Made by a program: the position numbers and the translations under genes. A stretch of DNA of 44,409 nucleotides, taken from sequence record PQ579973.1; one strand, written 5' to 3'. How positions within the stretch are numbered: position 1 is the stretch's first letter; each line of letters opens with the position of its first letter. Origin of the DNA: Escherichia phage MirsaeidiM_Esher4. The notes under the pieces were generated by a model that worked only from the letters and a program-made list of their open reading frames with translations, made no database searches and was not told where the DNA came from. This document shows, in pieces, positions 1 to 44,409 of the stretch.

Positions 1-55
1 AAAAACAAAAGGCCTGCGTACAGAGATGTAACTGTGTGGCATGGGTGGCAAAGGT
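1..55. repeat. Terminal direct repeat; identical to 44355..44409 (circular wrap or terminal redundancy)
   Basis: Bases 1-55 match bases 44355-44409 exactly on direct comparison; a reading frame continues across the junction. Confidence 0.9.
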
Positions 56-3258: not shown

Positions 3259-3366
3259 TCTTTAATCCTTTGGTTAAGAGGTTGTTGGTTTGGCTTAAAT
3301 GCACCAGGCGGTAACCATCCGCTTTTCGTGCGCGACACTAGGTGCAAAATTATTCTAACACACTAC

Positions 3367-3399
3367 TTGCGCACCCAAATATAATAGGGTACTATTCAC
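3367..3399 (+). promoter_or_regulatory. Sigma70-like promoter (TTGCGC-N17-TACTAT) with overlapping operator ATAATAGGGTACTATTCAC
   Basis: Hexamers with 17-nt spacer upstream of ORF 3438; operator sequence recurs at 23525, 24825 and 28355-28420. Confidence 0.5.
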
Positions 3400-3437
3400 T
3401 TACACCAACAATGTTATCTCAAATAAGGAATTAACAA

Positions 3438-5977: not shown

Positions 5978-6003
5978 AAAAGGCCCCAAACGGGGCCTTA
6001 GTT
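5978..6003. terminator. Bidirectional intrinsic terminator hairpin
   Basis: GGCCCC-AAAC-GGGGCC stem-loop with T/A-rich runs on both sides, between convergent genes. Confidence 0.6.
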
Positions 6004-7170
6004 TTATGCGTATGTGATGCGCTGAATAACAATAGACGACTGGTACTGGTTGCCGGTAGCCTGGCCTTCAATAGACTGAGTGATTGACTCAGGTCCTCCA
6101 ATCTCAGGTGTAACCGCCGTAAGTTCTGCACGTTTCAAACTGAAAGACATAGCCCCGTTTACCCCAGCCAGAATAGAGTTAATCTCCACCTGCTGCTCGT
6201 TGATAAACTTCTGAATCATCGCCATGTCGTACAGCTTACCGGAGATGGAGAAGGTGTTAGCTGCTCGGCTACGCTCCACAAACGCTACGTTAGTGTTGCC
6301 GAGTTCGAACTGTGCGGACGCGCTGTTGTCGTTGGTGATAGTAAGGCTATCACAACGCAACGGCGTAGAGCCATCGAACACGGAAACGTCAACCGAAGAG
6401 AACGGCTCATCACCAAAAGTAACAGATGAGAAGTTGGAACCGGTCGGCGGCGTAGTGAGAATCTCCTGACTGCGACCGATGAATGGGAAGCTGCCAGTTA
6501 CCATCGCGTTAACAGCCTGTTCGATGGTAAAACCAGAAACTTCCACGCCTTTGGTTAACGTGTACGCGTCAGTACCGCCGCACTGGCCTTTGTACCAGGT
6601 AAGGATAGAGAACGTCTTACACGTGTTACCGGTTTCCAGCGTGTCGCCGGTTTTAGCCTTACTAGTTTTTGTCTCGGTGGTCAGGGTGTGTTGGATGCCC
6701 GCACCGGTAACAACCGTAGCCGTTACTGCAGTAACAATAAATGGTTTTGCGTTATCGCCTGTTAAATCGGTAAATGCAATCAGGTCGCCTACCCCAACTC
6801 CGTCAGTGATAAAACTGCCGGTAGCGCGTGTGAACGTCTTGCCCGCGGGCAAGACGGTAATCGACAGACTGGACAGGGAAACACCGGATTGCCACGTAGA
6901 GCCTAAAGCACCAGCCAGCCAGTCATCCTGGCTTTTCGAGCTAAGCTCGATCGCGTATTCACCGCTAACCTGTTTGTTACCGGTGCGGATGGATGTAGTT
7001 TCACGGCTGCCGTCCAGTTCGTTGGAGGTCAGCGTGTCGCGGGTAATGGCAGGAACACCGCCAGTGTTACGCAACGGTGACCAGACCGGGTTAGTCGGTG
7101 TTACGCCCGGGGTGACTTCCGCCACATAGAATTGCGCGGTATTCGCGCCCTTAAAAGGAGTTGTAGCCAT
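6004..7170 (-). CDS. Major tail protein
   Basis: Thr/Ser/Gly-rich beta-type protein upstream of chaperone and tape measure genes; start moved to ATG 7170 (AAGAGG RBS). Confidence 0.7.
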   Translation of the reverse strand: MATTPFKGANTAQFYVAEVTPGVTPTNPVWSPLRNTGGVPAITRDTLTSNELDGSRETTSIRTGNKQVSGEYAIELSSKSQDDWLAGALGSTWQSGVSLSSLSITVLPAGKTFTRATGSFITDGVGVGDLIAFTDLTGDNAKPFIVTAVTATVVTGAGIQHTLTTETKTSKAKTGDTLETGNTCKTFSILTWYKGQCGGTDAYTLTKGVEVSGFTIEQAVNAMVTGSFPFIGRSQEILTTPPTGSNFSSVTFGDEPFSSVDVSVFDGSTPLRCDSLTITNDNSASAQFELGNTNVAFVERSRAANTFSISGKLYDMAMIQKFINEQQVEINSILAGVNGAMSFSLKRAELTAVTPEIGGPESITQSIEGQATGNQYQSSIVIQRITYA

Positions 7171-13469: not shown

Positions 13470-13701
13470 GGGTGATTACCTCTGATTTCGTCTTGCCTTC
13501 GTTGTCAGCGGCGGCGGCCTTTGATTCGTCCTGCTGCTGCCGTTGTGTTTTCTTCGCTAACTCAGCCTGTGCTTTCTGCCGTTGCTGCGAAACGAGATTC
13601 GCCTGGCCTTCGTTCCAGCCGCTGCGATACTGGTAGATTCCGTAGCCGTATGTCAGGAGGATGAAACATGCCCCCGCTACGACAGTTGCTTTAAGATTCA
13701 T
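13315..13701 (-). CDS. Inner-membrane spanin (Rz-like)
   Basis: N-terminal transmembrane helix VVAGACFILLTYGYGIY followed by Gln/Ala/Lys-rich coiled coil; AAAGGGGAA RBS. Confidence 0.65.
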   Translation of the reverse strand: MNLKATVVAGACFILLTYGYGIYQYRSGWNEGQANLVSQQRQKAQAELAKKTQRQQQDESKAAAADNEGKTKSEVITREVVKYIKTPGRSVCTFDPERVQLKSRAVANANSIPGYDDDAAAVQTGGAK

Positions 13702-13724: not shown

Positions 13725-13748
13725 AGCCCCGCCTTAAAGCGGGGCGCT
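13725..13748 (-). terminator. Terminator-like hairpin at 3' end of module A
   Basis: GCCCCGC-CTTAAA-GCGGGGC stem-loop followed on minus strand by UUUACUUAUC. Confidence 0.4.
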
Positions 13749-13779: not shown

Positions 13780-13955
13780 AATCTCAGTAAACCAGTTACT
13801 TTTTACACAAGCAATAGAGTATGGCCCTTCCGAACGCGTCAGCGTAACTACACTCAGGACTTACGTCCCGCTCCGTTACCTGCCCGCGCCGCGGTCGCTT
13901 GTTCATACTTCACAAGCTCAGGTGGAGCTTAGCACATTTTTGGTGAAAAGTCAAC
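13780..13955 (-). promoter_or_regulatory. Paralogous non-coding module, copy A (promoter TTGACT-N17-TAAGCT plus conserved hairpins; candidate small RNA or antitermination element)
   Basis: About 80 percent identical to 24977..25151 apart from a variable hairpin; no conserved ORF in any frame; 16-bp perfect palindrome AACTATTCGAATAGTT (13953-13968) overlaps the -35. Confidence 0.5.
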
Positions 13956-14020
13956 TATTCGAATAGTTTATTCCAACATTTACAATTGAGTGGAATAACT
14001 GGAATAGTCACAGGCACTAA

Positions 14021-14040
14021 AAAGCCCCTTTCGGGGCTTC
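14021..14040 (-). terminator. Intrinsic terminator after decoration gene
   Basis: AGCCCC-TTTC-GGGGCT hairpin followed on minus strand by TTTTTAG. Confidence 0.55.
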
Positions 14041-14043
14041 AGT

Positions 14044-14505
14044 TTATTCTGGCTTAGTAACCTTCGCTGCTTTACTTACGGCCTCTATACCGTCGGCATC
14101 AGTGACTTTAACGAAGTATTCACCAACTGCGTTAACCGTCAGAGACAGAGCCTCTTCCGGGGCGTTTACCACTTCCTTCCCGTCTTTGTACCAGGTCAGC
14201 GCATATGGTGCTTTGCCCGCCTTAACTTCGACAGCGATATTTGCGCTGCCGTCTGCCAGTTCAGCGTCCTGCGGTTGTACGGAGAAATACACATCACCGG
14301 CATCCGCCAGGTACTGAATCTCATAAAGCATACCTGCCGCTGGCAGCGCAATACCGGTCTTGTCCGCAAACGGCATATCGTCCACTGGTGTTCCGAGTAC
14401 ACTTTCGTCTTCAATAAACACCACGTTCTCGCCAGAGCCAGACACGCGGGCGTACTGGACTACGCGACGTGACGGTACATCAGTTACTTTGAAAAAGCCC
14501 ATCAT
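14044..14505 (-). CDS. Ig-like domain protein (putative capsid decoration)
   Basis: Ig-like segment YALTWYKDGKEVVNAPEEALSLTVNAVGEYFVKVTDADG. Confidence 0.5.
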   Translation of the reverse strand: MMGFFKVTDVPSRRVVQYARVSGSGENVVFIEDESVLGTPVDDMPFADKTGIALPAAGMLYEIQYLADAGDVYFSVQPQDAELADGSANIAVEVKAGKAPYALTWYKDGKEVVNAPEEALSLTVNAVGEYFVKVTDADGIEAVSKAAKVTKPE

Positions 14506-24596: not shown

Positions 24597-24799
24597 TTCA
24601 CCCTCCCCCCTTTAAATTTAAAATTGTTGCCGATGAGTTTTAAGTTCTCCTCCGCTACGTATATTTGTGAATTTACTCCTCTCACATTTTGCACGGTAAC
24701 TACGTACTTTCCTGGAAATAAAGCAGATTTTAATTCAATTATGCCGTGTTTATCGTCGGAGTATTTAACCAACTGACCGCGTTTAAACATAACCCTCAC
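24593..24799 (-). CDS. Hypothetical protein (first gene of minus-strand early-like operon)
   Basis: ATG 24799 with GAGGAG RBS downstream of operator-controlled promoter. Confidence 0.4.
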   Translation of the reverse strand: MRVMFKRGQLVKYSDDKHGIIELKSALFPGKYVVTVQNVRGVNSQIYVAEENLKLIGNNFKFKGGRVK

Positions 24800-24824
24800 T
24801 CCTCTGTCTCGTTTCGATAAGTGA

Positions 24825-24853
24825 ATAGTATCCTATTATGTTGGGGTGTGCAA
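24825..24853 (-). promoter_or_regulatory. Sigma70-like promoter (TTGCAC-N17-TACTAT) with overlapping operator
   Basis: Operator GTGAATAGTATCCTATTATG overlaps the -10; about 35 nt upstream of ATG 24799. Confidence 0.5.
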
Positions 24854-24976
24854 GAGAATAGTTACGTTGCCGTTGTGACTCTTTCGTTTAATGGGATAGC
24901 GAGCGAAACGAAACGAACGTGGTGCCGAAGGCACCAAGAGTGAGTGAGTGAGCTTGCGGTTCTAACCTACGGCAAA

Positions 24977-25151
24977 TCAGTAACTTAGATAATTAGACAG
25001 GAATTACAATAGACTATGGCCCTTCCGAATGCGCCAGCGAGACTCACTCCACACGTCGAGACGTGCTCGTTTCGCCTGCCGCGCACCGCGGTCGCTTGTT
25101 CATACTTCACAAGCTCAGGCTGAGCTTACCATATTTCTTAGTAAAAGTCAA
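24977..25151 (-). promoter_or_regulatory. Paralogous non-coding module, copy B (promoter TTGACT-N17-TAAGCT plus conserved hairpins; candidate small RNA or antitermination element)
   Basis: Paralog of 13780..13955; -35 and -10 at identical relative positions; followed on minus strand by hairpin GGTGCCGAAGGCACC (24921-24935) and U-rich tract. Confidence 0.5.
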
Positions 25152-25256
25152 TACTAGTAGCATCTTTTGTATTTTAGTAACTTTGTGTGGTGTTTTGGTT
25201 GCTTTTACAAAGTTACCGCCTTATACTTCGGTATATCTTACATAGGAGAACGTGAA

Positions 25257-28354: not shown

Positions 28355-28420
28355 GTGAATAGTACCATATTAATTATTTTAGAAAAGCCCATTGACAAGT
28401 GAATAGTTCGCTATTATAGT
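28355..28420. promoter_or_regulatory. Divergent promoter region with two operator copies (TTGACA-N17-TATAGT rightward; leftward regulator promoter)
   Basis: Operators GTGAATAGTACCATATTAAT (28355-28374) and GTGAATAGTTCGCTATTATAG (28399-28419); TTGACA at 28392-28397. Confidence 0.55.
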
Positions 28421-28451
28421 TAGCCCATACCAAACGAGAGGAGAGAAACAA

Positions 28452-30536: not shown

Positions 30537-31033
30537 GTTTAGTTCGGGAGCGTTTCATTTATGAAAACGGGAAACTAATCTATCGCCACAATACAAAAAG
30601 AATGTTAGCTGGTCAGGAGGCGGGAAGCCTCCACCATTCAGGGTATGTGCAGATATACATTAATTGTAAGTCCTACCAAAGAAGCCGTTTAATATGGGGG
30701 TACCACAACGGCCCTATACCTGAAGGGTTTGAGGTGGACCATATAAATGCGATAAGAAATGATGACAGGATAGAGAATCTCCAGTTAATCGCTCATAGCG
30801 ATAATGTGGCTAAAGGCGGCATTCAAACCGGAAGAAGTCATAACAAAAGCGGGTACACTGGCGTGTTCTGGCGCAAAAGCCACGGTAAATGGCAGGCTGG
30901 GATTACCGTAAACGGGCGATATCGTTACCTTGGACTATTCGAAACTCCTGAACAGGCTAACGTGGCAAGAAAGAATTTTGAAAGTAATTTGCTAAAAGAA
31001 GTTGACTACCGAATAGCGAACTATTATAGTTAA
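30533..31033 (+). CDS. HNH homing endonuclease with AP2 DNA-binding domain
   Basis: HNH motif GYHNGPIPEGFEVDHINAIRNDDRIENLQLIAHSDN; AP2-like SGYTGVFWRKSHGKWQAGITVNGRYRYLGLFETPEQA; AT-rich; start moved to ATG 30533. Confidence 0.8.
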   Translation: MSLVRERFIYENGKLIYRHNTKRMLAGQEAGSLHHSGYVQIYINCKSYQRSRLIWGYHNGPIPEGFEVDHINAIRNDDRIENLQLIAHSDNVAKGGIQTGRSHNKSGYTGVFWRKSHGKWQAGITVNGRYRYLGLFETPEQANVARKNFESNLLKEVDYRIANYYS

Positions 31034-31719: not shown

Positions 31720-31738
31720 TATCTGAATCAATTTAACT

Positions 31739-31764
31739 AAGGCCCTTCATTGGGCCTTTTTACT
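31739..31764 (+). terminator. Intrinsic terminator
   Basis: AGGCCC-TTCATT-GGGCCT followed by TTTTTAC. Confidence 0.6.
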
Positions 31765-34315: not shown

Positions 34316-34596
34316 CTAAAGAGGGCCGCGTACAGAAATACGCAAAAGACCGATTCGAGGCCCTTGGCGGCCTCGTTCGCAAACTCTCCTACGAGGGGCG
34401 TTCCGGCGCCCCAGACCTGCTGGTAATTCTCCCCGGCGGCATAGTCTGGTTCGTCGAGGTTAAGAAAGACGAGAACACGAAGCCAGACCCGCACCAGCTA
34501 CGGGAACATGAGCGGATGCGTAAACGTGGTGCGAATGTTTTTGTCGTTGGTTCGTTTAAACAGGTTGACGACCTAATAGCTAGCTATTATAGTTAG
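34312..34596 (+). CDS. VRR-NUC domain nuclease
   Basis: Segment GAPDLLVILPGGIVWFVEVKK matches the D...E.K core of VRR-NUC; start moved to ATG 34312. Confidence 0.55.
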   Translation: MTKEGRVQKYAKDRFEALGGLVRKLSYEGRSGAPDLLVILPGGIVWFVEVKKDENTKPDPHQLREHERMRKRGANVFVVGSFKQVDDLIASYYS

Positions 34597-35639: not shown

Positions 35640-37056
35640 GTTTCAAAGGCGCGAATACCAGAAGCTCATGACTTCGTTCATGCTGCGGCACCATCGCTGC
35701 AATATCTGGGCGAGCATGGGCAGCGGTAAGTCGGGGTCAACGTTGTGGGTTCTCAATCGACTGTTCCGTAATGGGCAACTTAATGACGACGACCGAGTGT
35801 TAATTCTGGCTCCTTTACGTGTTGCGTCAGGTACGTGGCCCGCGGAACAGGCACGTTGGAGCTTCCCCTGTCTGAGTGTCGTAGACGCAACCGGTTCAGA
35901 GAAGCGCCGTATCGCGGCGCTGGAGTCAGATGCTAACGTGGTGTGCACAAACTACGAAGTTATCGAGTGGCTGATTGACTACTACGGCAAAGACGACTGG
36001 CCTTTTACGGTTATCGTTGCTGATGAGAGCACGAAGCTGAAATCTTTCCGTAGCCGTTCTGGAGGAAGCAAACGGGCTAAGGCGCTAAGCAAAGTGGCGT
36101 TCGGAAAGGTTAAGCGTTTCATTAACCTGACAGGCACACCGTCGCCGAACGGCCTCAAGGACTTGTGGGGGCAGAACTGGTTTATCGACGCTGGCGAGCG
36201 CCTTGGTTCTTCGTACACGGCATTCACAGACCGCTGGTTTAACTCGGTACAGAAAGGGAAATCCGCGATGGCGCGGGAGTATCACGCACGACCGGGTGCG
36301 GATAATGAGATTCATCAGAAGATGAAAGACATTAGTCTCACTATTGACGCCGCTGAGTGGTTCGGGTGTGAAGCGCCGATTATTGTTACGGTTGAAATCG
36401 ACCTGCCGAAGAAAGCACGTCAGGCGTACATCGATATGGAGGAGAAGTTATTCGCGGAACTTGAGAGCGGGGAAGTGGAAGCTGCTAACGCTGCGGCGAA
36501 GACGTCGAAGTGCTTGCAAATTGCGTCCGGTGCCGTATATGTATCTGGGCCAGACGGCGAAGCAACCAAAGACTGGGAGAAAGTACACGACACGAAACTG
36601 GATGCGCTGGAGTCCATTGCCGAGGAGTTGCAGGGTGCGCCGTTACTAGTCGCCTATCAGTTCAAGCACGAACTGGAGCGCATCCTCAAGCGCTTCCCGC
36701 AGGCGCAGGCTTTTGCAAAAGGCGCGAAGGGCAATAAGCAGATGGAAGCGTGGAACCGTGGCGAAATCGAAATCCTATGCGTGCACCCCGCGTCAGCCGG
36801 CCATGGCTTGAATTTACAGGACGGCGGACATCATCTGGCGTTTATTTCGCAAGGCTGGAACCTTGAGCACTATTTGCAGGTTGTCGAGCGTATAGGCCCG
36901 GTGCGCCAGAAGCAGGCGGGCCACGAGCGACCAGTGTTCATCTATCACATCGTTGCTAAAGACACGCTGGACGAGGTTGTTGCCTCGCGTACTGACGAGA
37001 AGAAATCGGTCCAGGAAGAGTTGCTTAATTACATGAAGAGACGAGGTAAGAAATGA
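35632..37056 (+). CDS. SNF2/DEAD-like superfamily 2 helicase
   Basis: Walker A SMGSGKSGST, DExx-like VIVADESTKL, NLTGTPSPN motif. Confidence 0.75.
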   Translation: MSKFQRREYQKLMTSFMLRHHRCNIWASMGSGKSGSTLWVLNRLFRNGQLNDDDRVLILAPLRVASGTWPAEQARWSFPCLSVVDATGSEKRRIAALESDANVVCTNYEVIEWLIDYYGKDDWPFTVIVADESTKLKSFRSRSGGSKRAKALSKVAFGKVKRFINLTGTPSPNGLKDLWGQNWFIDAGERLGSSYTAFTDRWFNSVQKGKSAMAREYHARPGADNEIHQKMKDISLTIDAAEWFGCEAPIIVTVEIDLPKKARQAYIDMEEKLFAELESGEVEAANAAAKTSKCLQIASGAVYVSGPDGEATKDWEKVHDTKLDALESIAEELQGAPLLVAYQFKHELERILKRFPQAQAFAKGAKGNKQMEAWNRGEIEILCVHPASAGHGLNLQDGGHHLAFISQGWNLEHYLQVVERIGPVRQKQAGHERPVFIYHIVAKDTLDEVVASRTDEKKSVQEELLNYMKRRGKK

Positions 37057-37190: not shown

Positions 37191-37195
37191 AGAAA

Positions 37196-37215
37196 AGGCC
37201 CCGTTTGGGGCCTTA
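37196..37215. terminator. Bidirectional intrinsic terminator where the two transcription arms converge
   Basis: AGGCCCC-GTTT-GGGGCCT hairpin flanked by A-run and T-run. Confidence 0.65.
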
Positions 37216-37218
37216 GTT

Positions 37219-40173
37219 TTATTTATCTTCTAGTGCTGCCAGCCTCTTCTCGAACTCGCGCATCTTCTTACGCTGATAGGCAATCTCTATGAAGAACATC
37301 TGGTCCGCCCTAACCCCCCATCTGCCGCCGGGAGGGGATACTTGTACAGTCTGGCCATCTTCATCAATATCATACGCAGCTTCAATTGGGTCGTAGCACA
37401 AGAAAGCATATTTACAATCGGTAGAATCTTTCTCCATAAGCCCATGGTTGACCAAGATGTCTCGCACATCTTGGGCTATCACACCGAAGTGTATCCTTGC
37501 AGTGTCACCCTTGATTGCTAGGCTTTCAAGCCACTTAAAAGATATTACATGTATATCTTCCCATGCGGTAAGGAGTTGTCCCTCAATTTCCTCTTTATTC
37601 GTCTTAAGTGTACCATCAGACGTGTTTATCGTACCGGTGGTCGCGTACACCGTAGTCCACCTATTACCTGCCGAACCTAAAGACACTTGCGAGTCTAAGT
37701 AAGGAAGGAAATTGTTGTATGAGTAGAAGCCTCCTGACGCATACATAATAGCCCTGTTAGGCGTTGCATGGTTTACCCCGTACAGTTGCAGCAACGCACC
37801 ATCGGAACTGGATGCACCATCACCACCGCTAACTATCAGTCTTTGACCCGATGGGGTTTTAGTGGGGACTGTTTTTGAAATCAGCCCGTAATCACCATCA
37901 AACCGTGCACGCACGGCAGACTGTTGTGTACCATCGTATTCCAGCCCCGTTACATGCAGGGAGTACACGCTTACATCATTGTCAAACGTTAAAGGTGCTT
38001 CTACATGGCGTACACCATCTACCCCCATGGCGACAGGTATTGTACGGTTAGGAGTTGCCCCGTATTTGAAATCACGTGATACGTACGGGTGGTCTTCAAT
38101 CTTTATCCGGTAGCTATATAAGTCAGCCGGATGCCCATCATGTTTGTACCATAACTTCGCACTGTTATCCCCTATGCTCCAGGGAGAGAAGAAGTCTTCC
38201 CCACCAAAGATATAGTACAACCAGCCATCTTTAACACAGACCGAGCCGACGCCGACAGCAGAGTTAACGATATGACCCTGGTATATTTGGTCGGTAATAT
38301 TAAACCACTGAACATCATCTAAAGATGAAGGCCAGGACGACACATTAACTTTGCACATAAAGGTCCTCGGATACGAACCTTCATAGCGGCTGTCCTGCTC
38401 ACCACCTTCCCACTCACCAAAGGCACGTTCTGTACCAAAGATGTAGAGATAGTCACCTACTTTAGCGAACGGAAGATTGGAGTGATGTACATTGTTCGGA
38501 AATCGCAAGTAGCTCCAGTTTTGCCCAGAATCGGTGCTCATCGCCAGTGTAGAGCCAGGGGAAGTAGGTAATGTGCCGCGTGTGGTAAGGTATAACACAC
38601 CACCATAACTTTTCACGCACGGCTCAGAAGCGTTATCAGCGTATGCCTGAGCGACAGTGCGACGAACGAATACGCCTGGATTATCATACACGTTACTAAA
38701 ATACAAGACACCGAGACGCCGAGGGGACACATCGCCGTTGTGATAGCCGACAGCGATAGTGTAGTTAACATCATCTATAACCGCAAAACTATGTGTCTCC
38801 GTGACACACAAATCAGCGTTAGTGGAGTATGCTACCCCAGGCAATTCGGTAATTTCCCACGGGCTGTCCCAGAATCTCGTTGCGAAGTTCCAGGTAACAC
38901 CTGCATTGTTTATGGTGGAACTCGCCGGGCTTGAGAGCGTAACAGTGATCGTATTTCGGTTAATTATAGACGAAACCGTCATATTACCCGATACGCCAGT
39001 TGCCGATGTATTAGAGAAGTTAACCGCATCTCCTGCTTTTAGGCCATGATTTTCTATGACAATGGTAGCAGTAGTGGAGCCAGAACTAATAGTTATTCCG
39101 CCGGTTGGGTGTCTAAAATACGGCATTGGGCGTGACCAAAGTTCTGCCTTCTTCATCCGCATATTAGATAAGTAGCGGGTTTCTATAACTGCATATAATC
39201 GGTTGCCGCACGTACCCATGCTCATGCAGTGGTAGTTAACTCTGTCCGTAGAAACACTAGCATTATAGTCAGCATGGATTGGAGTCAACCACTCAGGCAT
39301 TGACCAAGTCTGCCCGTCGTCTCCAGAGCGAACCCAAGCTACATGTAAGTTTTGAACGCCATGTCGTTCGCCTGCCATAAACGGAGCGTAAATAACATTG
39401 TCGTAGACGAAAGTTTTATCCTGCGTCCATGCGTTGTAGAACGGGGTATCCGTCACCTTAGTTAGTGAGCTGTTAAAGAAGCCATCAGCTACATAAGTAA
39501 GCGGTTGCCCGGCTACGCGCTCGTAAACGAATGCAGCATTCTTAAATTTACTAATGTCGGGTAATTGGGAAACTTTATAAGTCAAGCCCCTGCAGTCTAT
39601 AATCCAATTGTTGGGTGAAGCGGCTAATACATTAAAAATAGATTGGGTATCATCAGTTACGCCGTCGCCCACGGCGCCCCATGCGCGCGGGTCGTATTCG
39701 TCCTTCCATCGCGCCACATGTAAATCTGGGTACAGAATTGCGCCGTTCGCATTAGATATTTGCTGCCTCAGTACGACCGACCCGGCGCGTTGCCATGCCC
39801 CTTCGGACACGCCTCCTGTAGACTGCGGAGAAGATGACGCCGGGATAGTTTTTGGCAGAGCGCCCAACCAATAGTACCAATCCCCGTCACCGCCAGAGGA
39901 CGACGGCCACAAAACTGCGGTGTTTCGGTCGTTAGCGGATAGTGTACCGCCTGACGTGAAATCAAAATCTGCCAGTTTAAAACCAGCATCACGCAACACT
40001 GCAGGTAACGTCTTCTGGGTCTGTCCAGTAACCTTATTTGTCGCGTAATCAATATCGGCACCACCGGCGACACCGCCGGATTTGCCAGTGATAACCTCGG
40101 CTTCAAAAATTTGGTGTTTCTTGGCGGTCTGTAAATCCGCCAGGCTTAAAACGTCACCGCATCCGCTTGACAT
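37219..40173 (-). CDS. Tailspike or tail fibre protein with C-terminal intramolecular chaperone (peptidase S74-like) domain
   Basis: 984 aa; C-terminal region (DGTLKTNKEEIEGQ...HFGVIAQDV...) resembles auto-cleaving chaperone domains of endosialidase-type tailspikes; AAGAGGA RBS. Confidence 0.75.
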   Translation of the reverse strand: MSSGCGDVLSLADLQTAKKHQIFEAEVITGKSGGVAGGADIDYATNKVTGQTQKTLPAVLRDAGFKLADFDFTSGGTLSANDRNTAVLWPSSSGGDGDWYYWLGALPKTIPASSSPQSTGGVSEGAWQRAGSVVLRQQISNANGAILYPDLHVARWKDEYDPRAWGAVGDGVTDDTQSIFNVLAASPNNWIIDCRGLTYKVSQLPDISKFKNAAFVYERVAGQPLTYVADGFFNSSLTKVTDTPFYNAWTQDKTFVYDNVIYAPFMAGERHGVQNLHVAWVRSGDDGQTWSMPEWLTPIHADYNASVSTDRVNYHCMSMGTCGNRLYAVIETRYLSNMRMKKAELWSRPMPYFRHPTGGITISSGSTTATIVIENHGLKAGDAVNFSNTSATGVSGNMTVSSIINRNTITVTLSSPASSTINNAGVTWNFATRFWDSPWEITELPGVAYSTNADLCVTETHSFAVIDDVNYTIAVGYHNGDVSPRRLGVLYFSNVYDNPGVFVRRTVAQAYADNASEPCVKSYGGVLYLTTRGTLPTSPGSTLAMSTDSGQNWSYLRFPNNVHHSNLPFAKVGDYLYIFGTERAFGEWEGGEQDSRYEGSYPRTFMCKVNVSSWPSSLDDVQWFNITDQIYQGHIVNSAVGVGSVCVKDGWLYYIFGGEDFFSPWSIGDNSAKLWYKHDGHPADLYSYRIKIEDHPYVSRDFKYGATPNRTIPVAMGVDGVRHVEAPLTFDNDVSVYSLHVTGLEYDGTQQSAVRARFDGDYGLISKTVPTKTPSGQRLIVSGGDGASSSDGALLQLYGVNHATPNRAIMYASGGFYSYNNFLPYLDSQVSLGSAGNRWTTVYATTGTINTSDGTLKTNKEEIEGQLLTAWEDIHVISFKWLESLAIKGDTARIHFGVIAQDVRDILVNHGLMEKDSTDCKYAFLCYDPIEAAYDIDEDGQTVQVSPPGGRWGVRADQMFFIEIAYQRKKMREFEKRLAALEDK

Positions 40174-44141: not shown

Positions 44142-44409
44142 ATGATACCCACCGAAAAAGTAGCTAAGAGTATGTGGCTGCGTGCGAATTATCCCGCGAA
44201 CAAAAGCAGCAAAACTAGGCGCGCAACTATATGCGATTTTGGCATAAATGACGCCGATTATGTAGTTAGTCCTAAGATAAACGGCAACCGTGAGCCGTGT
44301 CCGGCGTACGCTACATGGCGAGGGATGATCCAACGTTGTACAGACACCGAGTATAAAAACAAAAGGCCTGCGTACAGAGATGTAACTGTGTGGCATGGGT
44401 GGCAAAGGT
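44142..44409 (+). CDS. AP2-domain putative homing-endonuclease-like protein, N-terminal part (continues at 1..438)
   Basis: ATG 44142 with TAGGAG RBS; frame runs into the terminal repeat in phase with ORF 34..438; combined product about 216 aa. Confidence 0.6.
   Translation, partial: MIPTEKVAKSMWLRANYPANKSSKTRRATICDFGINDADYVVSPKINGNREPCPAYATWRGMIQRCTDTEYKNKRPAYRDVTVWHGWQR
44355..44409. repeat. Terminal direct repeat (copy of 1..55)
   Basis: Exact 55-bp identity with window start. Confidence 0.9.

What the first reader, a model, noticed from the sequence alone, without database searches (positions are those of the whole stretch)
24977..25151. Paralogous non-coding module, copy B, in the divergent control region
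Copy B lies in the roughly 450-bp non-coding hub (24800-25256) from which the minus-strand and plus-strand arms diverge. On the minus strand it has the same TTGACT-N17-TAAGCT arrangement (-35 at 25146-25151, -10 at 25123-25128), then the conserved hairpins, then hairpin GGTGCCGAAGGCACC (24921-24935) with a U-rich tract. Next come a (GTGA)3 microrepeat and the operator-controlled promoter at 24825-24853. A short terminated leader upstream of lysis and late genes is reminiscent of lambda pR'/6S RNA/qut or HK022 put-type control; this is an analogy only.
Basis: partly seen in the sequence, partly recalled or inferred. Interest (0 to 1): 0.75.

Follow-up and report, generated by a model that had tools for sequence, protein, structure and literature searches.

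The report
Structured leader RNA of Guernseyvirinae phages
The flagged stretch is one of two copies of a previously undescribed, roughly 110-base folded RNA that starts at the first base transcribed from a strong phage promoter; it is found in some 450 E. coli and Salmonella phage genomes and probably controls how far RNA polymerase reads into the late genes.

Summary
The window is a complete Kagunavirus (Guernseyvirinae) genome. Copy B (RNA 25116-25005, minus strand) and copy A (13919-13810, minus) are the only two members of one structured-RNA family in it. Each starts 5-6 nt after an identical TTGACT-N17-TGnTAAGCT promoter.

The fold is a short 5' hairpin, then a long irregular hairpin, then a conserved single-stranded tail (UUCGGAAGGGCC...CUAUUG). 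The long hairpin has an invariant basal helix with two G-U pairs. Covariation supports the fold: 95.7% of cells paired and 16 of 28 pairs with double changes, against 32-44% paired in slid controls. It is strand-specific and non-coding.

Copy A heads the spanin-capsid-tail operon in about 450 phage records, in two sequence types. Copy B is a later duplication found in a Kagunavirus subset. Nothing matches in Rfam, HK022 put or E. coli genomes, and I found no literature.

The most likely function is a promoter-proximal cis-acting RNA that makes RNA polymerase resistant to termination. It would work like put or nut without being homologous to them. This is inferred, not shown.

The parts
25146..25151 (-). 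-35 hexamer TTGACT of promoter P_B
   Evidence: Read directly. The identical hexamer and spacing occur at copy A and in all K-type homologues.
25123..25131 (-). Extended -10 element TGG-TAAGCT of P_B (-10 hexamer at 25128-25123, TG at 25131-25130)
   Evidence: The TGn-TAAGCT element sits 5-6 nt before the RNA start in every K-type copy. Jersey-type copies have TGn-TACGCT.
25005..25116 (-). Copy B of the structured leader RNA (covariance-model match, 112 nt). GAGCUU at +1..+6 echoes the -10 hexamer.
   Evidence: R1 gives 103.3 bits, E about 1e-24. R2 gives 94.7 bits with filters off. The fold is shown.
25094..25114 (-). P1: short 5' hairpin GCUUGU-GAAGUAUGA-ACAAGC
   Evidence: In Jersey-type phages it is replaced by UACGCU-UUC-AGCGUA, a fully compensated change. 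Helix 1 is 98% paired, and 4 of its 6 pairs show double changes.
25025..25091 (-). P2: long irregular hairpin. It has an invariant basal helix (CCG.GGNGCG / CGCN'UU.CGG) with two G-U pairs, a conserved asymmetric internal loop (..GAG.. / GGAGUGAG), and a variable apical hairpin (CACGU-CUCG-ACGUG).
   Evidence: The pair at columns 40/112 is C-G in 16, U-A in 12 and A-U in 3 sequences. The apical helix has 4 of 5 pairs with double changes.
25005..25024 (-). Conserved single-stranded tail AAGGGCCAUAGUCUAUUGUA. Together with the preceding UUCGG it is the most conserved sequence in all types.
   Evidence: Alignments. CGGAAGGG is retained even in Cornellvirus SP-031.
24938..24952 (-). (UCAC)3 microrepeat in the spacer. 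It is complementary to the Shine-Dalgarno region GGAGUGAGGG (24802-24793) of the first gene of the arm.
   Evidence: Sequence. The pairing is predicted in the minimum-free-energy fold of the whole leader. In type-C homologues the repeat has the opposite sense, so the role is unclear.
24920..24936 (-). Stable UUCG-loop hairpin UGGUGCC-UUC-GGCACCA. It is terminator-like only by a loose criterion.
   Evidence: Free energy is -10.5 kcal/mol and T-tract score 0.94. In other B-type copies a different long hairpin (GGGGUGGGC..GCCCACCC) sits at the same place.
24825..24853 (-). Second, operator-bearing promoter TTGCAC-N17-TACTAT. The palindrome AATAG-N4-CTATT (24824-24837) overlaps the -10.
   Evidence: It forms an inverted-repeat pair with 3366-3402 (I1) and belongs to the same operator family as 28378-28422, 30988-31032 and 34551-34595 (D1, I6).
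13926..13954 (-). Promoter P_A of copy A, TTGACT-N17-TGC-TAAGCT. The perfect palindrome AACTATTCGAATAGTT (13953-13968) abuts it.
13810..13919 (-). Copy A of the structured leader RNA (110 nt)
   Evidence: R1 gives 137.6 bits. It is identical or nearly identical in dozens of Kagunavirus and some Jerseyvirus genomes.
13726..13745 (-). Intrinsic-terminator-like hairpin t_A (GCCCCGC-UUUAA-GGCGGGGC, then UUUACUUAU). The ribosome-binding site and start of the spanin gene (ATG at 13701) follow immediately.
   Evidence: Free energy is -16.1 kcal/mol and T-score 3.0, comparable to the operon-end terminator. There is no room for another promoter before the gene.

Best explanation
Copy B is a duplicated cassette of promoter plus leader RNA. 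A strong, operator-free sigma-70 promoter (consensus -35, extended -10) starts transcription exactly at the first base of a roughly 110-nt RNA. As it emerges, the RNA folds into a short 5' hairpin and a long irregular hairpin, followed by a conserved purine-rich tail.

I propose that this nascent RNA acts in cis on the RNA polymerase that made it. It could do so on its own, as HK022 put does, or by recruiting a host or phage factor, as lambda nut does. Either way the elongation complex would become resistant to termination and pausing. It could then pass the GC hairpins just downstream and the terminators inside the long operons: t_A at 13745-13726, the terminator after the capsid gene at 11354-11333, and those at 15607-15592 and 14048-14019.

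The -10-like hexamer at +1..+6 may cause a sigma-dependent promoter-proximal pause that gives time for folding or factor loading.

Copy A, which is universal in the subfamily, would license expression of the spanin-capsid-tail operon. Copy B, found only in a Kagunavirus sub-lineage, would add a class of modified transcripts that run from upstream through the operator-controlled promoter into the early, lysis and packaging arm.

What is shown: the promoter motif, the start-aligned conserved RNA, its fold, its strand specificity, its non-coding nature, its distribution and its genomic placement. What is inferred: transcription from that promoter in vivo, any effect on termination, and whether the action is factor-independent.
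For: 1. Two and only two copies are present, each 5-6 nt downstream of the same TTGACT-N17-TGnTAAGCT promoter. Conservation begins at the predicted +1.
2. The fold is supported by covariation. Of paired cells, 95.7% are standard pairs, against 31.6-44.3% in slid controls. Sixteen of 28 pairs show double changes, and 0 of 500 shuffles reach the observed values. Jersey-type copies have entirely different P1 and P2 stem sequences but the same fold.
3. The fold is strand-specific. Two G-U pairs are invariant, and the sense strand folds better than the antisense in 31 of 31 distinct sequences (-41.7 against -31.9 kcal/mol).
4. It is not coding. Lengths are 97, 98 and 109-112 nt with frame-breaking indels, and no reading frame stays open across the types.
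5. Copy A is followed by a credible terminator and then directly by the ribosome-binding site of the spanin gene, with a terminator upstream of the promoter as well. Any polymerase that expresses the capsid operon must therefore read through t_A.
6. Further terminator-like hairpins lie inside both downstream operons.
7. The module is placed this way in about 180 K-type and about 269 Jersey-type phage records. A diverged analogue sits at the same site in Cornellvirus.
8. Copies A and B exchange parts between phages: L014 at the A site carries the P2 seen at the B site of L048. This suggests they are functionally equivalent and position-independent.
9. The -10 hexamer is echoed at the transcript start in both types: TAAGCT/TGAGCT in K-type and TACGCT/TACGCT in Jersey-type. 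The putL paper proposes a comparable sigma-dependent pause element (PMC9378689).
10. The basal helix and tail are invariant although paired, which suggests sequence-specific recognition by a conserved partner.
11. No known antiterminator protein family was found among 13 nearby small proteins.
Against: - No experimental data exist on transcripts, termination or readthrough. No paper on the subject turned up in the searches I ran (a further search returned nothing specific to Jerseyvirus).
- The hairpin after copy B and its type-C/D counterpart have very poor U-tracts (T-scores 0.94 and 0.46). The hairpin after Jersey-type copy A is weak (1.86). The promoter-RNA-terminator logic is therefore clear only for K-type copy A.
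- K1G and Jersey have no copy B, so copy B is dispensable for the leftward arm.
- The tail-gene arm (3258 down to 1, continuing from 44409 to 37219) has no such RNA.
- There is no similarity to put, and no boxA or ops motif.
- If the RNA acts alone from a constitutive promoter, it is unclear how late-gene timing would be achieved.
- The covariation statistics were computed on an alignment fitted to the model, which inflates them somewhat.
Confidence: 0.4

Rival explanations
1. It is a stand-alone small RNA. The promoter makes a discrete RNA of about 190-220 nt that ends at the downstream hairpin and acts in trans, for example by base-pairing with host or phage mRNAs, sequestering a host protein, or countering a defence system. 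Downstream genes would be expressed only by leak-through.
For: A strong constitutive promoter sits next to a structured RNA and a GC hairpin. There are two gene copies, which would raise dosage. The conserved single-stranded tail could serve as a seed for base-pairing. The element is phage-specific, with no host homologue.
Against: At copy A the hairpin is followed within about 10 nt by the ribosome-binding site of the spanin-capsid operon. That operon has no other promoter and has a terminator upstream, so efficient termination would starve the most highly expressed genes. The hairpins after copy B and after Jersey-type copy A lack proper U-tracts. No target was identified. The spacer between the RNA and the hairpin is poorly conserved.
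Confidence: 0.2
2. It is a 5'-UTR processing or stability element. The long irregular hairpin would be an RNase III or RNase E processing site, or a 5' stabiliser, that sets the half-life or translation of the operon mRNA, like the RNase III sites of T7 early mRNAs or the lambda N leader.
For: P2 comprises about 22 bp in total, interrupted by internal loops. To my knowledge this is the size and style of phage RNase III substrates. It lies in the 5' leader of highly expressed operons and has paralogous copies within one genome.
Against: RNase III has little sequence specificity, to my knowledge. That does not explain the invariant basal helix with two fixed G-U pairs, the conserved internal loop, the conserved single-stranded tail, or the exact alignment with +1 and the -10 echo. 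The apical part, which makes up a large share of the duplex, varies freely in length.
Confidence: 0.15
3. It is a sensor-type attenuator, riboswitch-like or protein-dependent. The structured RNA would bind a metabolite or a phage or host protein and thereby decide whether the downstream hairpin forms or whether the spanin ribosome-binding site is exposed.
For: The layout of aptamer-sized structured RNA, then hairpin, then ribosome-binding site is the standard riboswitch arrangement. Conserved unpaired nucleotides lie in an internal loop.
Against: About 75 nt of poorly conserved spacer separate the RNA from the hairpin. No conserved alternative pairing between them was found. There is no multi-helix junction or pseudoknot. 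Rfam gives no match even at E up to 10. At copy B the next element is a promoter, not a gene.
Confidence: 0.1
4. It is a Q/qut-type DNA-level system. The conserved promoter-proximal DNA, including the -10-like element at +1..+6, would be a loading site for an unrecognised Q-like phage protein on a sigma-paused polymerase, and the RNA fold would be secondary.
For: TTGACT-N17-TAAGCT-N5-TGAGCT resembles the layout of lambda pR' as I recall it (not checked against the lambda sequence). The echo of the -10 hexamer changes together with the hexamer between K-type and Jersey-type copies. A short leader with a terminator downstream resembles the lambda 6S RNA and tR' arrangement.
Against: Compensatory base changes and G-U pairs show that selection acts on RNA pairing along about 95 nt, far beyond a qut site. 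No Q-family protein was detected among the proteins scanned. Cornellvirus lacks the echo.
Confidence: 0.1
5. It encodes a small protein, or it is a DNA structure such as an origin, a pac site or a cruciform.
For: GenBank records annotate short hypothetical CDSs over it, for example Jersey gp08 and Snoke_056. ORFs of 35-42 aa overlap it in the window.
Against: No ORF is conserved between types, and the indels break the frame. The G-U pairs would be A-C mismatches on the other strand, and the antisense strand folds worse in 31 of 31 sequences.
Confidence: 0.03

Closest known systems
HK022 put RNAs (putL, putR): cis-acting, factor-independent processive antiterminator RNAs
   Same: Both are nascent RNAs with two stem-loops. 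putL, like this element, begins at the very start of the transcript from a strong early promoter. Both occur as two paralogous copies per genome, each heading a transcription unit. Both lie upstream of terminators that must be passed. Both have a -10-like element in the early transcribed region. No dedicated antiterminator protein is evident nearby in either case (PMC9378689).
   Different: There is no sequence or covariance-model similarity: 0 hits on the HK022 genome, and the put sequences extracted are not alignable with it. This element is larger, about 96-110 nt against about 72 nt. Its topology differs: a small 5' hairpin plus one long irregular hairpin and a conserved tail, instead of two comparable stems with a triplex. 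The host phages are virulent siphoviruses, not lambdoid temperate phages. The element heads a late structural operon rather than early operons. Its function is untested.
Lambda pR' / qut / 6S RNA / tR' with the Q antiterminator
   Same: As I recall lambda pR', both have a constitutive strong promoter with -35 TTGACT, a -10-like hexamer at +1..+6, a leader of about 200 nt ending at a hairpin terminator (copy A), and late lysis or structural genes downstream.
   Different: Here the leader RNA structure is under selection, which is not known for lambda 6S RNA. No Q-like protein was found. A Q-binding DNA element could not be assessed.
Lambda nutL/nutR with N protein (boxA plus boxB)
   Same: Both have two promoter-proximal RNA sites per genome that would make polymerase termination-resistant over long operons. 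An RNA hairpin is the recognition element.
   Different: No boxA-like sequence is present: the best matches have 2 of 8 or 4-5 of 13 mismatches. There is no 15-nt boxB-type hairpin. No arginine-rich N-like protein family was detected.
RNase III processing hairpins of T7 early mRNAs
   Same: Both are long irregular hairpins with internal loops, repeated within a phage genome in untranslated regions.
   Different: This element has a fixed position at +1, a sequence-invariant basal helix and a conserved tail, and only one or two copies. T7 sites lie between genes, not at transcript starts (my own knowledge; not tested here).

Membership tests
HK022 put antiterminator RNA family | Sequence and structure homology to putL/putR | tested here: not met
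   Covariance model R1 gives 0 hits on the whole HK022 genome at E up to 10. putL and putR were located and aligned to each other, and I saw no alignable similarity to this RNA on reading them. Rfam holds no matching family.
HK022 put antiterminator RNA family | Two stem-loops formed by the nascent RNA directly downstream of a promoter (putL starts at +3) | tested here: met
   P1 and P2 are supported by covariation. The RNA starts 5-6 nt after the -10 hexamer, at the predicted +1. Size and topology differ from put.
HK022 put antiterminator RNA family | Lies upstream of terminators that are read through | tested here: inconclusive
   K-type copy A is followed by a credible terminator (T-score 3.0), and there are internal terminators downstream. 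The hairpins after copy B and after Jersey-type copy A are poor terminators. Readthrough itself was not measured.
HK022 put antiterminator RNA family | Acts in cis without protein factors by binding the beta' zinc-binding domain of RNA polymerase | not testable with these tools
   This needs in vitro transcription and rpoC zinc-binding-domain mutants.
Lambda Q / qut late-gene antitermination | Q-family antiterminator gene in the genome | tested here: inconclusive
   No Q-like family was found among the 13 small proteins nearest copy B: the ten downstream ORFs were scanned against PHROGs and the three plus-arm ORFs (plus three of the ten) against Pfam, and four proteins at copy A and the other divergent region against Pfam. 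None is annotated in the related records. Not every ORF of the window was scanned, and Q families are diverse.
Lambda Q / qut late-gene antitermination | -10-like pause-inducing element in the initially transcribed region | tested here: met
   GAGCTT occupies +1..+6, with A at position 2 and T at position 6. TGAGCT echoes TAAGCT, and in Jersey-type copies TACGCT is repeated exactly. This is a sequence match only; pausing was not measured.
Lambda N / nut antitermination | boxA (CGCUCUUA-like) followed by a boxB hairpin | tested here: not met
   The best boxA-like matches in both leaders have 2 of 8 or 4-5 of 13 mismatches. No boxB-type 15-nt hairpin appears in the folds.
Rho-independent terminator (for the hairpin at 24936-24920) | GC-rich stem-loop immediately followed by a U-tract | tested here: inconclusive
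   It passes a loose scan, with 7 pairs and 5 T in an 8-nt window. However, the tract starts with ACG and scores T=0.94, against 2.6-3.3 for the clear terminators of this genome.
Any described RNA family (Rfam 15) | Score at or above the family gathering threshold | tested here: not met
   There are 0 matches at gathering thresholds in the whole window. Only chance-level hits (E of 0.9 or more, far below threshold) appear in both loci.
Protein-coding gene | Reading frame conserved among homologues | tested here: not met
   Every frame is interrupted in one or more sequence types, and lengths differ by 1-2 nt.

The most novel reading that the evidence does not exclude
This may be a second, evolutionarily independent family of RNA-only processive antiterminators, with no homology to put. 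Virulent siphoviruses of E. coli and Salmonella would use it to drive their late structural operon with unmodified host RNA polymerase. A sigma-70-dependent pause encoded by an echo of the promoter's own -10 hexamer would be coupled to its action. The promoter-plus-RNA unit would be a portable cassette that has been duplicated and exchanged between operon heads.
Probability: 0.25. Interest if true: 0.8.

Novelty: new variant of a known kind. Interest (0 to 1): 0.62.

Why it matters
Guernseyvirinae (Kagunavirus, Jerseyvirus) are among the phages most often isolated for therapy and biocontrol against E. coli K1/ExPEC and Salmonella. I found no published account of how they time and sustain late transcription with host RNA polymerase alone, and related records annotate no antiterminator.

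A covariation-supported RNA at the first transcribed base of the capsid-operon promoter, conserved in about 450 genomes, is a concrete and easily tested candidate for that control.

If it is an autonomous antiterminator, it would be only the second such phage RNA family after put. It would offer a compact part for synthetic biology: a promoter plus about 100 nt that lets polymerase ignore terminators.

There is also a practical annotation point. Several GenBank records place spurious hypothetical-protein CDSs over this RNA.

Tried and rejected
- Rfam, at gathering thresholds over the whole window and at E up to 10 on both loci: nothing meaningful. No tRNA or tmRNA.
- Homology to HK022 put: 0 covariance-model hits. 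putL and putR were extracted and aligned to each other, and I saw no alignable similarity to this RNA. A short GC-rich resemblance (CGGCGGG..CAGG..AACGG) was judged to be chance.
- Host mimicry: no blastn match in 5,426 complete E. coli genomes.
- Spread beyond the subfamily: pattern scans of viral contigs and of 100,044 species genomes gave true covariance-model hits only in Guernseyvirinae contigs. Two 'bacterial' records that hit look like phage contamination. The other pattern matches were in coding sequence or by chance.
- A second copy in K1G, Jersey and Cornellvirus: none found with filters off.
- Coding potential: rejected.
- boxA and ops motifs: absent.
- Pseudoknot between the internal loop GUAG and the tail CUAU: considered by reading the alignments; no consistent positional covariation between types, so dropped.
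- Similarity of the t_A stem (CCCCGC/GCGGGG) to the E. coli type I-E CRISPR repeat stem, which would suggest an RNA anti-CRISPR: no CRISPR-repeat family hit on t_A even at E up to 10, so treated as coincidence.
- Literature: no paper on antitermination or small RNAs in Guernseyvirinae turned up. One search was too unspecific to be informative, and another returned nothing specific to Jerseyvirus. The one Kagunavirus transcriptome paper gives gene-level time classes only and does not mention promoters, terminators or intergenic RNA.
- Co-variation between RNA type and a phage protein, to find a partner: considered but not run, because the conserved RNA core is shared by all types and the test would not be decisive.
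Full report
**What the window is.** The first and last 55 bases are identical (D3). A 701-nt query around the finding matches 437 phage records, the best being Escherichia phages of the genus Kagunavirus, subfamily Guernseyvirinae. The window is therefore a complete genome of about 44.35 kb from a virulent siphovirus.

Gene layout follows from the ORF list and from the annotated relatives Snoke, K1G and Jersey. A divergent non-coding hub lies at 24800-25256. Rightward from it run an HTH gene and the replication genes. Leftward, on the minus strand, run about a dozen small genes, then holins and endolysin, terminase, portal and head-morphogenesis genes, ending at a terminator at 14048-14019. 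Next on the minus strand come copy A, the spanins, scaffold, major capsid and tail genes, down to a bidirectional terminator at 5980-5999.

**Checking the observation.**
- -35 TTGACT at 25151-25146
- 17-nt spacer
- -10 TAAGCT at 25128-25123
- hairpin at 24936-24920
- operator promoter TTGCAC-N17-TACTAT at 24853-24825

The paralogue is real: copy A matches at 13812-13849 and 13885-13954 with 86-87% identity (D2 and D5). TTGACT-N17-TAAGCT occurs exactly twice in the genome, at these two places.

Two details need correcting. In transcript order the (UCAC)3 microrepeat (24952-24938) comes before the hairpin, not after it. The 'U-rich tract' after the hairpin is ACGUUCGUUUCGUUUCG, which is a poor terminator tail.

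**The conserved part is a structured RNA.** Between copies A and B, the outer blocks are nearly identical. The middle differs, but in a compensated way: GUAAC/GUUAC against CGA/UCG, and GGGAC/GUCCU against CACGU/ACGUG.

Homologues came from 52 and 94 viral-contig loci and from GenBank phages. They fall into several sequence types at two genomic sites. All fold the same way:
- P1, a short 5' hairpin.
- P2, a long irregular hairpin. Its basal helix is CCG.GGNGCG / CGCN'UU.CGG with two invariant G-U pairs. It also has a middle helix, an asymmetric internal loop with conserved purines (GGAGC / GAGUGUAG), and an apical hairpin of free sequence and length.
- A conserved single-stranded tail, UUCGGAAGGGCCAUAnUCUAUUG.

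A covariance model built on 23 sequences finds exactly two copies in the window, at 137.6 and 103.3 bits. It also recovers a much more divergent Jersey-type copy at 41 bits. In that copy P1 is UACGCU-UUC-AGCGUA and the P2 stems are entirely different, yet all are paired.

On 58 matches (32 distinct sequences), 95.7% of cells form standard pairs. With partners slid by 1-3 columns the figure is 31.6-44.3%. Sixteen of 28 pairs show changes on both sides, and no shuffle out of 500 reaches the observed values. That alignment is fitted to the model, which favours it. However, the compensations between independent types are visible in the raw sequences.

The fold belongs to the strand downstream of the promoter. 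The invariant G-U pairs would be A-C mismatches on the other strand. The sense strand is more stable than the antisense in 31 of 31 distinct sequences (mean -41.7 against -31.9 kcal/mol).

It is not coding. Lengths are 97, 98, 109, 110, 111 and 112 nt, and no reading frame stays open across the types. Several GenBank records nevertheless place 'hypothetical protein' CDSs on it.

**Relation to the promoter.** In all K-type copies the RNA begins 5-6 nt after TGn-TAAGCT, at the predicted +1. Upstream of that point the sequences vary. The first bases of the RNA echo the -10 hexamer. In K-type copies the arrangement is TAAGCT-N4/5-TGAGCT, which puts GAGCTT at +1..+6 with A at position 2 and T at position 6. 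In Jersey-type copies it is TACGCT-N3-TACGCT, an exact repeat.

The echo changes together with the hexamer between the two types. A -10-like element at this position is what induces sigma-70-dependent promoter-proximal pausing at lambda pR' (my own knowledge). The putL structure paper proposes a comparable element for co-transcriptional folding (PMC9378689). Cornellvirus lacks the echo, so this is a lead rather than a rule.

**What lies downstream.** At copy A the RNA is followed about 65 nt later by GCCCCGC-UUUAA-GGCGGGGC-UUUACUUAU (13745-13726). Its stem energy (-16.1 kcal/mol) and T-tract score (3.0) match those of the operon-end terminator at 5999-5980 (-15.0 kcal/mol, 3.3). The ribosome-binding site and ATG of the spanin gene follow within about 20 nt, so no other promoter can fit. 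Upstream of P_A there is another good terminator at 14048-14019.

Consequently, any polymerase that expresses the spanin, scaffold, capsid and tail genes must read through t_A, and then through the hairpin after the capsid gene at 11354-11333.

At copy B the picture is weaker. The hairpin at 24936-24920 has a UUCG-type loop but a T-score of only 0.94. Other B-type copies carry a different long hairpin at that place, with a T-score of 0.46. The hairpin after Jersey-type copy A scores 1.86. A GC hairpin is thus conserved in position in all lineages, with compensatory changes such as GCCCGGC/GCCGGGC against GCCCGAC/GUCGGGC. Only K-type copy A, however, looks like a strong intrinsic terminator.

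After the copy B hairpin comes a second promoter, with the operator palindrome AATAG-N4-CTATT over its -10. The same operator sits in four other promoters of the genome (D1, I1, I6).

**Distribution and history.** K-type copies occur in 180 phage records, comprising Kagunavirus and some Jerseyvirus such as SETP13 and LSPA1. Jersey-type copies occur in 269 records. In every locus whose flanks I read, the site is the same: between the head-decoration gene and the spanins.

Cornellvirus SP-031 has, at that site, a diverged analogue: P1 GUUC-UAC-GAAC, a GC-rich long hairpin and the tail GCGGAAGGGUCGG. The model cannot score it.

Copy B is found only in a subset of Kagunavirus, about 42 records with two places. 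K1G and Jersey have none. In K1G the same position holds a different promoter-plus-hairpin leader, while the sequence further downstream is shared.

One phage (L014) carries at the A site a P2 almost identical to the P2 at the B site of another phage (L048). The two sites therefore exchange parts and are presumably equivalent in function.

Outside this subfamily nothing was found:
- no match in 5,426 E. coli genomes;
- no Rfam family;
- no paper found.

**Most likely mechanism.** The design is a strong, operator-free promoter, a conserved structured RNA that starts at +1, GC hairpins or terminators, and then long operons with internal terminators. There are two interchangeable copies, each heading a transcription unit. 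This is the design of processive antitermination signals.

I therefore favour a cis-acting nascent RNA that renders the polymerase termination-resistant. It could act alone, like HK022 put, or through a host or phage factor, like lambda nut. The sequence-invariant basal helix with fixed G-U pairs, the conserved internal loop and the conserved tail look like a recognition surface for a conserved partner. The -10 echo may provide a pause for folding or loading.

For copy B this would mean two classes of leftward transcripts. Those from the operator-controlled promoter would be unmodified. Those from P_B would be modified and able to reach the distal lysis and packaging genes across the terminators at 15607-15592 and 14048-14019. 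All of this is inference, and I put it at about 0.4.

It is not a member of the put family. The model gives no hit on HK022, and I saw no alignable similarity on reading the extracted put sequences. No boxA or ops motif is present. None of the 13 small proteins nearest copy B matches a known antiterminator family in the libraries each was scanned against.

**Rivals.**
- A free-standing small RNA ending at the hairpin (0.2). It fits the strong promoter and the conserved tail. It fits poorly with the capsid operon's dependence on readthrough at copy A and with the weak U-tracts elsewhere.
- An RNase III-type processing or stability element (0.15). It fits the long irregular duplex, but not the sequence invariance or the alignment with +1.
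- A ligand-dependent or protein-dependent attenuator (0.1). No conserved alternative pairing with the hairpin was found.
- A Q/qut-type DNA site (0.1). It is suggested by the pR'-like promoter and the echo, but it does not explain covariation over 95 nt.
- A small protein or a DNA structure. Both are rejected.

**Verdict.** The finding is real and more substantial than its coordinates suggest. It is one copy of an undescribed, covariation-supported leader RNA family that is near-universal in a large and practically important phage subfamily. The decisive experiments are simple: end mapping, in vitro readthrough with compensatory mutants, and zinc-binding-domain mutant hosts.

Noticed in passing
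window 28378-28422, 30988-31032, 34551-34595 (+), 3366-3402 (+), 24818-24854 (-): Five sigma-70-type promoters carry the same palindromic operator, (G)AATAG-N4-CTATT(AT). It lies in the spacer in three rightward promoters and over the -10 in the two others. One regulator probably controls all of them. The P_A and P_B promoters lack it.
   Followed up: partly
window 13953-13968: A perfect 16-bp palindrome, AACTATTCGAATAGTT, abuts and overlaps the -35 of the copy A promoter. It holds the same half-sites as the operator family but in everted order. It is conserved in all K-type A copies and absent in Jersey-type copies.
   Followed up: no
window 25117-25128 and 13920-13931; L059 7294-7312: The -10 hexamer is echoed at the transcript start: TAAGCT..TGAGCT in K-type and TACGCT..TACGCT in Jersey-type. 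In K-type copies AAGCTC is also the reverse complement of GAGCTT, giving an 8-bp inverted repeat AAGCTCAG-C-CTGAGCTT at copy B. This could be a sigma-dependent pause signal, or an alternative pairing in transcripts that read through from upstream.
   Followed up: partly
window 24938-24952 and 24793-24802: The (UCAC)3 microrepeat in the copy B leader is complementary to the Shine-Dalgarno region GGAGUGAGGG of the first leftward gene, and the two pair in the predicted fold of the full leader. Transcripts from the inner operator promoter would lack the repeat. In type-C homologues (L037) the repeat has the opposite sense (GUGA)3.
   Followed up: partly
window 24955-24963 and 25108-25116: In copy B the 5' end GAGCUUGUG can also pair with a downstream CGCAAGCUC instead of forming P1 (predicted fold). 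This is seen in the window-type B copies but not in types C or D.
   Followed up: no
window about 24978-24984 and about 24866-24872; also the downstream sequences of L048 and L037, and L058 about 36927-36934 and 37022-37029: UUGCCGU and ACGGCAA flank the hairpin domain between RNA B and the operator promoter. They are conserved in all B-site leaders, including K1G, which lacks the RNA. They could close a large stem, or they could be a DNA site upstream of the inner promoter.
   Followed up: no
window 5978-6007, 14019-14048, 31735-31761, 37193-37222: A family of near-identical bidirectional terminators, AAAAGGCCCC-N4-GGGGCCTT, marks the ends of the transcription arms (D4, I2, I4, I7).
   Followed up: no
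L058 (K1G) 36680-36900: K1G lacks copy B. At the same position it has a different promoter (TTGACA-N17-TAAAAT) followed by two hairpins. One of them, GCCCCGCCAUAAAGCGGGGC, resembles the terminator after copy A. The promoter-plus-leader unit therefore behaves as a replaceable cassette.
   Followed up: partly
L014 2220-2330 compared with L048 6743-6852: An A-site copy in one phage has the P2 hairpin of the B-site copy of another phage, while keeping A-type flanks. This is evidence for recombination or gene conversion between the two sites.
   Followed up: partly
L059 7265-7456 (Jersey gp08); L001 4316-4423 (Snoke_056); several records: GenBank records annotate 'hypothetical protein' CDSs over the RNA element. 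These are probably spurious, because no frame is conserved.
   Followed up: yes
L136 (a 'Bacillota' MAG contig, 6.2 kb) and L152 (Taishania pollutisoli scaffold48, 738 bp): Two records filed as bacterial genomes carry full-scoring copies of the phage RNA (97.4 and 40.6 bits). They look like Guernseyvirinae contamination or mis-binning, though I did not inspect the rest of either contig.
   Followed up: no
window 1-55 and 44355-44409: An exact 55-bp terminal direct repeat, consistent with an assembly overlap of a circularly permuted or circular genome.
   Followed up: no
L093, L094, L108 and L109 (viral contigs): An unrelated promoter-leader-terminator unit turned up through the search pattern: TTGACA-N17-TAAATT, then about 120 nt, then the hairpin AACCCUUCUUCGGAAGGGUU followed by UCUUUUU. 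It may be another small phage RNA.
   Followed up: no
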